Origin: Escherichia coli
GTDB taxonomy: Bacteria; Pseudomonadota; Gammaproteobacteria; Enterobacterales; Enterobacteriaceae
Assembly: GCF_003334405.1 (NCBI RefSeq)
Contig: NZ_QOWM01000005.1
Length of the DNA stretch: 64,000 nt
Reading direction: 5' to 3' (one strand)
Within the stretch, counting starts at the first letter, position 1. Every line of letters starts with the position of its first letter. This document shows, one piece after another, positions 46,301 to 49,300 of this stretch. The position numbers were made by a program.

Positions 46301-49300
46301 CGAACGGCATCGGCGCGTTCGTGGATTTCACGCAGCGCGCGATGCACCACATCAACCGGAACAGCCGGATGTTTGCCTTCCAGCGCATCTGCAATACCAG
46401 CCACCAGCGCCTCCGGCAGCAGCCCTTGCAGGCCAGATTCACTCAGTTGTTGGCCTACCTGTAAACCAATGCCGTAGCTTGCTTGCGCTTCGATGGTGTC
46501 AAAAGTTGGGGTGGTCATCGTATTTCCTTTCTTAGGGTATAAAAGTAGCGGGCAGCATATCAGCCACACTTCTTTGGGTAAAACTTTGTCGCAGGAATGA
46601 TGACAAATCCCGGGGAAAAAGAAACAATAGCAATATCCCGTATGAATATAATAAAGGCGGGTTTACCACGGACATCATAGCGTTAGCTTATTCATAGGCT
46701 ATGATTGAGGAACAAGACGCGGAGCAGGAGGAAACCATGCCCGGGCGCTTTGAACTAAAACCAACCCTGGAGAAAGTCTGGCACGCGCCGGACAATTTTC
46801 GCTTCATGGACCCGCTGCCGCCGATGCATCGTCGGGGGATCATTATTGCCGCCATTATATTGGTGGTCGGATTTCTGCTTCCATCTGATGATACGCCCAA
46901 CGCGCCGGTGGTGACGCGTGAAGCGCAGTTAGATATTCAGTCGCAATCACAACCGCCGACAGAAGAACAGCTGCGGGCGCAATTAGTCACACCACAAAAT
47001 GATCCTGATCAGGTGGCTCCGGTCGCTCCAGAACCTATACAGGAAGGCCAGCCAGAAGAACAGCCGCAAACTACCCAAACACAACCATTCCAGCCAGATA
47101 GCGGAATTGATAATCAATGGCGCTCTTACCGTGTCGAACCCGGTAAAACGATGGCGCAGCTGTTCCGCGACCACGGACTGCCCGCTACCGATGTCTATGC
47201 AATGGCGCAGGTAGAAGGCGCGGGTAAGCCGCTGAGTAATTTGCAAAACGGGCAAATGGTGAAAATCCGCCAGAACGCCAGCGGCGTGGTGACGGGCTTA
47301 ACCATTGATACGGGGAATAATCAACAGGTCCTGTTCACCCGCCAGCCGGATGGCAGTTTTATTCGTGCGCGGTAGATGAAGGGTCAACCAAAAGCCAGCT
47401 AAGGATTGTCTCTTTGATGACCTTACGTCTGGCTTCCAGTGCCTGGGGGGAAACCATACTGATATGATAAACCAGGCCAAGCGTATGCTGGTTGATCAAA
47501 TAATATCCGCCAAGCGCAGCAATATTAATATTCACCTGCAATGGGTCGATATCTGGCTTAAAAATATTGTGTTTCTTCCCTTCATCCAATAAGGATTCCA
47601 TTAACTGCAAGTGCGCATGGTTAATTTCTAAGAGACGCTGTGATTTTGCATAATGCACACCTTTACTTTGATTTTCACTATGCACAATTTTTAAAAACCA
47701 GGGATTAGCAATATAATAATCCCATGTAAAATCAATAATTTTCTCAATGGCTTTTTGTGGCGGAAGATCTGAGAAATCAAGGGCCTTTTCTTTTTGTCGA
47801 ATATCGTTCCAGGTATATTCCAGTACTTCAATAAATAAATTTTCTTTATTACCAAAGTGATGATAAACCGTCTGTTTACTACACCCCGCAGCCTTAACAA
47901 TATTATCGACCCTGGCCCCTTCATAACCATATTCGGCAAATTCATTAACCGCGCATAACAGCAGCTTTTCCTTCAGGCTCTGTACGTTGCTGGTATCAAG
48001 ATACATAACGCTTCCCCACGACCTCTTCAAGATAACTATCTTAACCCGATTAATTAGAAGCTCCAGTAAAAAGGATAAAAACTTGTACTTTCATCAAGTT
48101 ATCAAATGTCCTGTGATCACTATCGCATATCAACCAACCAGATGGTTGATCTTTCTTGCGGCACGTCGCAAGCTAATTGTCACTTAGAAAACAATATTCA
48201 AAAAAAGAGAGCTATTGTATGAAATCCACTCGTCCTGTTGCCGTGATTACCGGAGCCGCTCGTGGTATTGGAAAGGGCTGTGCGCTGGAGCTTGCTCGTG
48301 GCGGATTTAACCTGCTGATTAACGATCTTCCCGATGCCGACAGCGTAGAAAAACTGCATATCACACAACAAGAATGTATAGCTGAAGGCGTGGAAGTGAT
48401 TTGCTTCCCTGCCGATGTCGGCGATCTCTCCTTGCATGAAGAGATGCTCGACGCGGCGCAAAACCTGTGGGGACGTCTGGACTGCCTGCTCAACAACGCA
48501 GGCATTTCAGTGAAAAAACGCGGTGACCTCCTCGACCTCGAACCAGACAGCTTCGATCAAAACATTGCCATTAACACCCGCGCGCCGTTCTTCCTTGCTC
48601 AGGCATTCAGTAAGCGTTTACTGGCACAGCCGAAACCGGAAGCGGAACTGCCGCACCGCTCGATTATTTTCGTCAGTTCCATCAACGCCATCATGCTGGC
48701 GATGAATCGCGGCGAATACACCATTGCCAAAACCGCCGTTTCTGCCGCTGCTCGTCTATTTGCAGCTCGCCTTTGTAATGAACAAATTGGCGTTTATGAA
48801 GTGCGCCCAGGTCTCATCAAAACTGATATGACTATTCCGGCAACGGCTTATTACGACGAACTGATTGCCAAAGGTCTGGTGCCGTGGGGACGTTGGGGTT
48901 ATCCGGCTGATATTGCTTCCACTGTCCGCGCGATGGCGGAAGGTAAACTGATTTACACCTGTGGTCAGGCGGTCGCCATCGACGGCGGCTTAAGTATGCC
49001 GCGCTTCTGAGGCTGAATCATGAGAGATCTGTTACAACGCCCGGATTTATTCAGTATCAATACCGCAACACTGGGCTATAAAACGCCGCTACCCGCCATT
49101 ATTGATGCCTGCGCCGCGCGTGGTATTGGCGCGATTGCTCCCTGGCGCAGGGAGTTGCAAGGTGAAGATCTCCAGCAAATCGCCCACCAGCTTGCCGCCA
49201 GTAACATGAGCGTTTCCGGTTTGTGCCGTAGCACTTACTACACCGCGCCGACACTGGCGGAACGCAAACTGGCGATTGATGATAACCGCCGGGCGCTGGA

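What the first reader, a model, noticed from the sequence alone, without database searches (positions are those of the whole stretch)
48007..48218. Divergent promoter region with perfect ATCAACCA-N6-TGGTTGAT palindrome: candidate operator for the island TetR regulator
The 212-bp gap between the TetR gene and the first operon gene holds a perfect 8-bp-arm inverted repeat at about 48129-48150 plus further ATCAA/TTGAT half-site-like motifs. TetR-family repressors typically bind such palindromes overlapping divergent promoters, so this is the probable ligand-responsive switch of the island.
Basis: partly seen in the sequence, partly recalled or inferred. Interest (0 to 1): 0.45.

Follow-up and report, generated by a model that had tools for sequence, protein, structure and literature searches.

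The report
Operator of E. coli YtfA repressor
The palindrome is very probably the DNA site where the island's own TetR-type repressor (the intact form of the K-12 pseudogene ytfA) shuts off a CRP-activated promoter for an uncharacterised nutrient-breakdown operon; it is an ordinary kind of switch, but one not described before.

Summary
The perfect ATCAACCA-N6-TGGTTGAT repeat is at 48129-48150 as reported. Alone it is weak evidence (about 4% chance in such a gap). Comparison makes it strong. Across 18 orthologous gaps (regulator identity down to 57%) the block 48132-48151 is the only deeply conserved stretch (14/20 invariant versus 11/192 elsewhere, p about 5e-11). De novo k-mer search upstream of 19 alphaproteobacterial relatives (34-42% identity, unrelated neighbouring genes, near-identical recognition helix) returns the same ATCAACCA word. 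So the motif follows the regulator.

The regulator is intact YtfA; K-12 keeps only its 3' part. The right arm holds a TTGATC -35 hexamer, 17 bp from a weak -10 (48169-48174) in all 18 orthologs. A CRP box, TGTGATCACTATCGCA (48112-48127), lies 22 bp from the operator centre and is a published ChIP-seq CRP site in ETEC H10407. The predicted start near 48181 puts CRP at -61.5.

Refinements: the ancestral symmetry is probably 8-2-8 (RutR-like), with 8-6-8 arising from a 4-bp CAAC repeat; the extra ATCAA motifs are not supported; the main predicted ytfA promoter lies about 100 bp away. Binding, start site and inducer remain untested. New member of a known kind.

The parts
48129..48151 (.). Predicted YtfA (TetR-family) operator. 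Outer register: ATCAACCA(48129-36)-N6-TGGTTGAT(48143-50), perfect. Inner register: ACCAACCA(48133-40)-GA-TGGTTGAT(48143-50), 7 of 8 pairs, dyad at 48141/48142. Conserved core: 48132-48151, AACCAAC-n-A-nn-TGGTTGATC.
   Evidence: sequence. (conservation; 14/20 invariant versus 11/192 elsewhere, p=4.6e-11). (same motif upstream of alphaproteobacterial homologs). (single site in the 64-kb window, 0.23 expected).
48112..48127 (.). CRP binding site TGTGATCACTATCGCA, centre 48119.5, 22 bp from the operator dyad.
   Evidence: PMC4287617 Table 1 lists this exact 16-mer as a high-confidence CRP ChIP-seq site between ETEC_4557 and ETEC_4558 (ytfA) in ETEC H10407; half-sites conserved around a variable centre in 18 orthologs, always 21-22 bp from the operator centre.
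48146..48151 (+). Predicted -35 hexamer TTGATC of the operon promoter, lying inside the right arm of the operator.
   Evidence: present in 17 of 18 orthologs (TTGTTC in the other), always 17 bp from the -10 candidate.
48169..48174 (+). Predicted weak -10 hexamer CAAGCT (CATCTT, CATTTT or TAAGTT in other genera). A48170 and T48174 are invariant.
   Evidence: The implied start near 48181 places CRP at about -61.5 and the operator at about -52 to -31. The start site is inferred, not mapped.
48207..48221 (+). Shine-Dalgarno GAGAG (48207-11) and ATG (48219-21) of the first operon gene (SDR).
48038..48043 (-). Best-conserved candidate -10 of the ytfA promoter (TAAGAT here; TATGAT, TATAGT or TATAAT in orthologs). 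Implied start near 48031.
   Evidence: 17 of 18 orthologs. Positions 48042-43 are invariant. Prediction only.
47359..48006 (-). ytfA, intact: a TetR-family regulator of 215 aa (PF00440 + PF17938).
   Evidence: K-12 ytfA (b4205) is its 3' remnant.
48219..57142 (+). Target operon: SDR, xylose-isomerase-like TIM barrel, enoyl-CoA hydratase, CoA transferase, FAD-dependent oxidoreductase (fumarate-reductase-like), and TRAP transporter small, large and binding subunits.
   Evidence: The five-enzyme core is conserved with the regulator in other genera.

Best explanation
The palindrome is the operator of YtfA, the TetR-family regulator encoded next to it. Without inducer, a YtfA dimer (possibly two dimers) sits on 48129-48151. 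That covers the TTGATC -35 hexamer and the space between it and the CRP site, so the operon is not transcribed even when cAMP-CRP is bound. When an effector binds YtfA, it leaves the DNA. The effector is probably the transported carboxylate or a CoA thioester made from it. CRP, centred near -61.5, then recruits RNA polymerase to a promoter whose -10 is too weak to work unaided. The operon therefore needs two conditions: substrate present and glucose absent. Shown: the sequence; its conservation; its association with this regulator lineage; in vivo CRP occupancy of the neighbouring box. Inferred: YtfA binding, repression rather than activation, the start site, the promoter hexamers, and the effector. 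The ancestral symmetry is most likely 8-2-8 (consensus ATCAACCA-NN-TGGTTGAT, a RutR-like layout). In enterics a 4-bp CAAC reiteration in the left half creates the perfect 8-6-8 repeat.
For: (1) Conservation. In 6 E. coli alleles that differ at 63 of 212 gap positions, 48129-48154 has one variable base, in the spacer. In 18 orthologous gaps, 14/20 operator positions are invariant versus 11/192 elsewhere, p=4.6e-11. (2) The motif follows the regulator. K-mer discovery on 19 alphaproteobacterial upstream regions alone gives TCAACCA in 17/19 and ATCAACCA in 13/19. Those loci carry none of the island genes and instead have an amidase and an ABC transporter. Their recognition helix, [13 protein letters not shown], nearly equals E. 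coli [13 protein letters not shown]. (3) Position. -35 TTGATC, 17 bp, -10 CAnnnT in 18/18 orthologs. Operator to operon ATG is 72-87 bp, whereas operator to ytfA ATG is 120-350 bp; Entomohabitans has a roughly 210-bp insertion on the ytfA side only. (4) The CRP box is bound in vivo in ETEC H10407 and stays 21-22 bp from the operator centre in all orthologs. (5) Register. Alpha sites are plain 8-2-8, and P0093 carries a symmetric double change, CCG-AT-CGG. The closest characterised structural relative is RutR, whose box TTGACCAnnTGGTCAA has the same layout. (6) The motif occurs once in the 64-kb window.
Against: There is no binding, footprint, start-site or expression data for YtfA. The -10 candidate matches the consensus at only 2 of 6 positions in E. 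coli, and a simple consensus scan found no sigma-70 promoter. The start site, and so the -61.5 position of CRP, is a prediction. The two symmetry registers cannot be separated within the enterics: the 8-6-8 pairs are complementary in 12-18 of 18 sequences, and the 8-2-8 register has one pair never complementary and one complementary in only 7 of 18. Support for 8-2-8 within the orthologs rests on a single compensatory event. The best-conserved ytfA promoter candidate lies about 100 bp from the operator, so autoregulation is not explained. Some alpha sites (Sneathiella, Belnapia) fit the consensus only after a register shift. The 18 orthologs are not phylogenetically independent.
Confidence: 0.7

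Rival explanations
1. The site is bound mainly by another regulator present in all E. coli, most plausibly RutR, whose box it resembles. YtfA would then act elsewhere or not at all.
For: RutR is the closest characterised structural relative. Its consensus TTGACCAnnTGGTCAA has the same 7-2-7 layout and ACCA-nn-TGGT core. The E. coli site matches 9/14 positions, including positions 4 and 13, and the RutR ChIP-chip table lists bound sites with 9/14 matches.
Against: The motif tracks YtfA-type regulators in alphaproteobacteria with unrelated cargo. The invariant bases differ from the RutR consensus at positions 2, 3, 14 and 15 in all 18 orthologs. The RutR ChIP-chip was done in K-12, which lacks this locus, so it says nothing either way.
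Confidence: 0.08
2. YtfA binds the site but acts as an activator or co-activator with CRP, rather than as a repressor.
For: The site lies between CRP and the -35 region, where some activators act. A few TetR-family proteins activate; from my own knowledge, RutR activates carAB P1. The -10 is very weak.
Against: The site covers the -35 hexamer itself, the usual position for a repressor. From established knowledge, most TetR-family proteins beside divergent catabolic operons are ligand-released repressors. CRP at -61.5 already supplies activation.
Confidence: 0.1
3. The inverted repeat works as an RNA hairpin, either a weak intrinsic terminator or attenuator, or an mRNA stability element, and not as a protein-binding DNA site.
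For: The scan flags the hairpin plus CTTTCTT as terminator-like. The RNA folds at -12 kcal/mol, z = -2.8.
Against: The stem has only 3 G-C pairs and the T-run is interrupted. It lies upstream of the predicted start of the operon and of ytfA. Conservation is of the sequence, loop included, not of pairing. The outer three pairs are broken in the 57-67% group without compensation. No Rfam family matches. The same word recurs upstream of distant regulators.
Confidence: 0.03
4. The palindrome is a chance feature of an AT-rich gap and has no function.
For: About 4% of simulated gaps contain one, and the window has about 22 similar repeats.
Against: It is the most conserved block of the gap over 18 orthologs (p=4.6e-11), and it recurs in another bacterial class.
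Confidence: 0.01

Closest known systems
RutR and the RutR box (E. coli TetR-family pyrimidine regulator; consensus TTGACCAnnTGGTCAA, PMC2475637)
   Same: TetR fold: Foldseek TM 0.73-0.79, the closest characterised structure. Operator layout of 7-8 bp arms around a 2-bp spacer, with the identical ACCA-nn-TGGT core.
   Different: About 21% sequence identity. The outer arm bases differ (TCA/ATC versus TTG) and are invariant in YtfA sites. The enteric YtfA site carries an extra CAAC that produces a second, 8-6-8 register. YtfA is a local regulator of one adjacent operon, with one site in the window, whereas RutR has about 20 targets, many of them inside genes.
Classical TetR/tetO-type local repressor switches with divergent regulator and target genes (TetR, AcrR, and the acyl-CoA-sensing FadR of Bacillus and KstR2)
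   Same: N-terminal HTH (PF00440) with a ligand-binding helical domain. A palindromic operator in the gap between divergent genes, overlapping a promoter element. Weak sequence matches to acyl-CoA-sensing members, the FadR and KstR2 hits, fit a CoA-pathway operon.
   Different: The operator overlaps only the target promoter, not the best candidate for the regulator's own promoter. Control is combined with an obligatory activator, CRP. The effector is unknown.
Class I CRP-dependent promoters with a specific repressor (such as lac, and PestA2 in PMC4287617)
   Same: A CRP site close to consensus, bound in vivo. Predicted centre at -61.5. A weak core promoter. A specific repressor adds a substrate signal.
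   Different: Here the repressor site lies between CRP and RNA polymerase, over the -35, rather than at or after the start site as in lac (my own knowledge). The start site is not mapped.
QacR-type operators bound by two TetR dimers
   Same: The enteric site is longer (22 bp) than the 18-bp ancestral form and offers two overlapping left half-sites 4 bp apart.
   Different: From my own knowledge, the QacR operator IR1 is 28 bp. Nothing here shows stoichiometry, so this is only a possibility.

Membership tests
TetR-family repressor/operator switch | The regulator has the TetR N-terminal helix-turn-helix domain and an all-helical ligand-binding domain. | tested here: met
   PF00440 + PF17938 on all homologs. 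TetR hits in the PDB and NCBIfam. AF2 model with pLDDT 92, whose best matches are all TetR-family structures.
TetR-family repressor/operator switch | A palindromic operator lies in the promoter region of an adjacent target gene. | tested here: met
   Perfect 8-6-8 and 7/8 8-2-8 repeat at 48129-48150, overlapping the conserved -35 candidate.
TetR-family repressor/operator switch | The operator motif co-occurs with the regulator lineage across genomes, independently of the target genes. | tested here: met
   18 of 18 orthologous gaps. De novo recovery of the word in 17 of 19 alphaproteobacterial loci with different neighbours. Conserved recognition helix.
TetR-family repressor/operator switch | The regulator binds the operator directly (EMSA, footprint or ChIP). 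| not testable with these tools
   No paper in the searched library reports YtfA binding.
TetR-family repressor/operator switch | A small-molecule ligand releases the regulator from DNA. | not testable with these tools
   The effector is unknown. The island proteins give no clear substrate.
Class I CRP-dependent promoter | A CRP consensus site that CRP occupies. | tested here: met
   TGTGATCACTATCGCA matches 9 of 10 half-site positions. The identical 16-mer is a high-confidence CRP ChIP-seq site at ETEC_4557/ytfA in H10407 (PMC4287617 Table 1).
Class I CRP-dependent promoter | The site is centred near -61.5 (or -71.5, and so on) from the transcription start. | tested here: inconclusive
   With the conserved -10 candidate at 48169-74, the predicted start near 48181 gives -61.5. 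The start is not mapped.
Class I CRP-dependent promoter | Transcription depends on CRP. | not testable with these tools
   No expression data were found.
RutR regulon site | Matches the RutR box TTGACCAnnTGGTCAA, and the regulator is RutR. | tested here: not met
   The layout is the same, but only 9/14 positions match, and the invariant differences fall at box positions 2, 3, 14 and 15. YtfA is about 21% identical to RutR.
Intrinsic (Rho-independent) terminator | A G+C-rich stem followed by an uninterrupted U-run, located in a transcript, with pairing preserved by compensatory change. | tested here: not met
   3 of 8 pairs are G-C and the tail is CTTTCTT. It lies upstream of the predicted starts. 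The outer pairs are lost without compensation in distant orthologs.

The most novel reading that the evidence does not exclude
YtfA and its operator control a still-uncharacterised CoA-dependent catabolic pathway for a gut-derived carboxylate, and that pathway is what makes the locus interesting. The pathway genes are CoA transferase, enoyl-CoA hydratase, SDR, TIM-barrel enzyme and fumarate-reductase-like flavoenzyme. The module has been kept with interchangeable transporters (TRAP or MFS) in about 58% of E. coli and in Salmonella, Klebsiella, Citrobacter and others. The operator-promoter module would serve directly as a biosensor to find the substrate. In addition, the enteric 22-bp site with its duplicated CAAC may bind two offset dimers, a different binding mode from the 18-bp ancestral site.
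Probability: 0.3. Interest if true: 0.55.

Novelty: new member of a known kind. Interest (0 to 1): 0.35.

Why it matters
The result gives a precise, testable regulatory map for an island carried by more than half of complete E. coli genomes but lost from K-12, which helps explain why it has not been studied. The map comprises the operator, the CRP site, the promoter hexamers and the predicted start. It names the regulator as intact YtfA and defines a DNA motif for a TetR subfamily (PF17938) that spans gamma- and alphaproteobacteria, which can be used to annotate regulons. It also supplies a ready promoter-reporter design for finding the unknown substrate. The mechanism itself is textbook.

Tried and rejected
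**Tool runs that gave nothing useful**
- The simple consensus promoter scan found no sigma-70 promoter. A PWM scan projected on the ortholog alignment was needed instead.
- Naive ORF calling gave noisy context in the GC-rich alpha loci. I replaced it with tblastn and NCBIfam.

**Literature searches**
- 'ytfB/rplI/TRAP' returned only irrelevant papers. The DFI-seq paper uses 'trap' to mean promoter trap.
- Searches for ytfA, for the operator sequence and for the pathway found no characterisation.
- My guess that the island degrades shikimate or quinate through CoA esters found no support in the literature, so I make no such claim.

**Substrate clues from solved structures**
- The TRAP binding protein matches only structural-genomics entries with generic names.
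- The flavoenzyme has no relative at E <= 1e-20.
- The TIM barrel matches uncharacterised 'sugar isomerase' entries.

**Readings considered and rejected**
- Other palindromes in the gap (48029-42, 48080-100, 48155-72) as operators: not conserved.
- An alternative leftward promoter using the left arm as -35 (TTGATA-17-GACATT): found in only 9 of 18 orthologs, so kept only as a weak possibility for autoregulation.
- RNA element: no Rfam match.

Full report
**Observation.** The window is E. coli chromosome, 100% identical to ATCC 8739 and many other strains. Between ytfB and rplI lies an island. It has a TetR-family gene on the minus strand (47359-48006) and, diverging from it, eight genes on the plus strand (48219-57142). 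These encode an SDR, a xylose-isomerase-like TIM barrel, an enoyl-CoA hydratase, a CoA transferase, a fumarate-reductase-like FAD oxidoreductase and three TRAP transporter subunits. The gap is 212 bp and 37% G+C, against 51% for the window. The perfect repeat ATCAACCA (48129-36) / TGGTTGAT (48143-50) with a 6-bp spacer is there as described. Taken alone it is only mildly unusual. About 4% of simulated gaps contain such a repeat, and the window has about 22 comparable ones. The extra ATCAA motifs at 48093 and 48101 are no more than chance would give and are not conserved.

**The regulator.** K-12 MG1655 carries the pseudogene ytfA (b4205) at this position, overlapping the end of ytfB in the same way. 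It is near-identical to the 3' ~425 nt of the window's gene and then diverges. K-12 therefore lacks the HTH-coding part, the gap and the operon, and has yjfZ instead. The regulator is the intact YtfA. A 2019 survey lists ytfA only as a TetR-family gene present in some E. coli and in E. albertii and E. fergusonii (PMC6790063). I found no paper on its function, its operator or the island's pathway. The gap sequence is found in 3134 of 5426 complete E. coli genomes.

**Conservation within E. coli.** The gap exists as several alleles that are 100, 88, 86, 81.5 and 79% identical to the window. Across six alleles, 63 of 212 positions vary. Yet 48129-48154 has a single variable base, 48139 in the spacer, which is C here and T in the other five. 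The chance that some 26-bp stretch is this clean is about 0.04.

**Conservation across genera.** I collected orthologous loci from E. whittamii, E. albertii, Klebsiella spallanzanii, Salmonella, Lelliottia, Leminorella, Entomohabitans and six metagenomic relatives, with regulator identity down to 57%. All have the regulator diverging from the same SDR-TIM-hydratase-CoA transferase genes. In the 18-sequence alignment the only deeply conserved block is 48132-48151, AACCAAC-n-A-nn-TGGTTGATC. There, 14 of 20 positions are invariant, against 11 of 192 in the rest of the gap (Fisher p = 4.6e-11).

**The motif follows the regulator, not the cargo.** The genome scan also returned 19 alphaproteobacterial TetR homologs, 34-42% identical. 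None has an island gene within 3 kb. The two I examined lie next to an amidase, and one also next to an ABC transporter. K-mer discovery on their upstream regions alone, with no E. coli input, gives TCAACCA in 17 of 19, ATCAACCA in 13 of 19 and ATCAACCAAC in 10 of 19. Their recognition helix, [13 protein letters not shown], is almost the same as E. coli's [13 protein letters not shown]. This is the standard comparative argument for assigning a motif to a transcription factor, and it is the strongest evidence here.

**Which symmetry?** Many alpha sites are plain 18-bp palindromes in an 8-2-8 layout, for example Ferrovibrio ATCAACCA-GA-TGTTTGAT and Phreatobacter ATCAACCA-AC-TGGTTGTA. The enteric site equals the Ferrovibrio site plus four bases (CAAC) in the left half. 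This gives two overlapping left half-sites: ATCAACCA (outer, 8-6-8, perfect) and ACCAACCA (inner, 8-2-8, 7 of 8). In the 18 orthologs the outer three pairs of 8-6-8 hold in only 12-14 sequences. In 8-2-8, six pairs hold in all 18, one never holds and one holds in 7. One ortholog (P0093) shows a symmetric double change, CCG-AT-CGG, that preserves 8-2-8 and breaks 8-6-8. The predicted structure (pLDDT 92) is closest to an uncharacterised Corynebacterium protein and then to E. coli RutR. The RutR box TTGACCAnnTGGTCAA has the same layout and ACCA-nn-TGGT core (PMC2475637). I conclude that 8-2-8 is ancestral and that the perfect 8-6-8 repeat is a by-product of the CAAC reiteration. Whether the extra half-site recruits a second dimer is open.

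**Promoter context.** A sigma-70 weight-matrix scan of all 18 gaps, projected on the alignment, finds one rightward candidate in 18 of 18. Its -35 is TTGATC (48146-51, inside the right arm), followed by 17 bp and a -10 of CAAGCT, CATCTT, CATTTT or TAAGTT (48169-74). A48170 and T48174 are two of the few invariant bases outside the operator. The implied start is near 48181.

**CRP.** Immediately left of the operator is TGTGATCACTATCGCA (48112-27). Its half-sites are conserved and its centre varies, as expected for CRP. Its centre is 21-22 bp from the operator dyad in every ortholog. This exact 16-mer is listed as a high-confidence CRP ChIP-seq site between ETEC_4557 and ETEC_4558 (ytfA) in ETEC H10407 (PMC4287617 Table 1). 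With a start at 48181, CRP sits at -61.5, the class I position, and the operator spans about -52 to -31.

**Spacing.** The distance from operator to operon ATG is 72-87 bp, and 72-79 bp in 17 of 18 orthologs. The distance to the ytfA ATG ranges from 120 to 350 bp. Entomohabitans carries a roughly 210-bp insertion on the ytfA side only. The CRP-operator-promoter module therefore belongs to the operon.

**The ytfA promoter.** The best-conserved leftward -10 (TAAGAT or TATGAT, 48043 to 48038, 17 of 18 orthologs) lies about 100 bp from the operator. Direct autoregulation is therefore not evident. A weaker leftward candidate that uses the left arm as -35 appears in only 9 of 18.

**Rivals.** An RNA hairpin or terminator is unlikely. 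The stem is weak and the T-run is interrupted. It lies upstream of both predicted starts. Sequence rather than pairing is conserved. There is no Rfam match. RutR cross-binding cannot be excluded, since the site matches 9 of 14 box positions including the two most important. It does not explain why the motif follows YtfA homologs. Chance is excluded by the conservation.

**Verdict.** It is a new member of a well-known kind. Binding, start site, direction of regulation and effector all remain to be tested.

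Noticed in passing
window 58873-58888: TTTGAAGTTCATCACA is the reverse complement of TGTGATGAACTTCAAA, which PMC4287617 Table 1 lists as a CRP ChIP-seq site at yjfY/rpsF in ETEC H10407. The window therefore holds a second experimentally bound CRP site.
   Followed up: partly
window 54274-57142; L055, L056, L057: The five-enzyme core and the regulator are conserved, but the transporter differs. It is a TRAP system in Escherichia. It is an MFS permease in Salmonella (together with an EamA gene) and in the 59-62% relatives, where a flavodoxin gene follows.
   Followed up: partly
window 48007-48218; L002-L006: The gap alleles differ by 12-21% within E. coli, far more than I would expect for core E. 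coli DNA, while the flanking SDR protein is 96-98% identical even in other Escherichia species. This suggests old allelic lineages or exchange between species.
   Followed up: no
window about 47340-47765; L064 (K-12): K-12 ytfA is the 3' remnant of this gene. The breakpoint lies near window 47765, and beyond it K-12 has unrelated sequence and yjfZ.
   Followed up: yes
L001 16359-17899 (ATCC 8739); L006 1244-2035 (JS01): The CoA transferase is annotated as frameshifted in ATCC 8739, although the window has an intact 513-aa ORF at 50658-52199. The SDR gene has an internal stop in strain JS01. The operon appears to be decaying in some strains.
   Followed up: no
window 48088-48107: TTTCAT...GTTATCAAAT is conserved in Escherichia, and C48092, A48093 and T48100 are invariant in all 18 orthologs. 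It lies about 20-30 bp upstream of the CRP box. Its function is unknown; it could be an UP element or another factor's site.
   Followed up: no
window 48114-48117 and 48148-48151: GATC (Dam methylation) sites lie in the left CRP half-site and in the right operator arm. The latter is kept in 17 of 18 orthologs.
   Followed up: no
window 47359-47375: The 3' ends of ytfA and ytfB overlap by 17 bp in convergent orientation, in this window, in K-12 and in Salmonella.
   Followed up: no
window 21707-21736: GATATCAACAAAGCAGGACTGGTTGATATC is a perfect 9-bp-arm repeat with ATCAAC/GTTGAT arms and a 12-bp spacer. It was not among the matches to the operator core pattern at up to 3 mismatches.
   Followed up: no
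L012-L031 (alphaproteobacteria): YtfA-like regulators there sit beside an amidase (PRK06169 family), and in Sneathiella also beside a NitT/TauT-type ABC transporter. The ATCAACCA-NN-TGGTTGAT box lies 65-136 bp upstream of the point where the protein match begins. This looks like a separate regulon using the same operator.
   Followed up: partly
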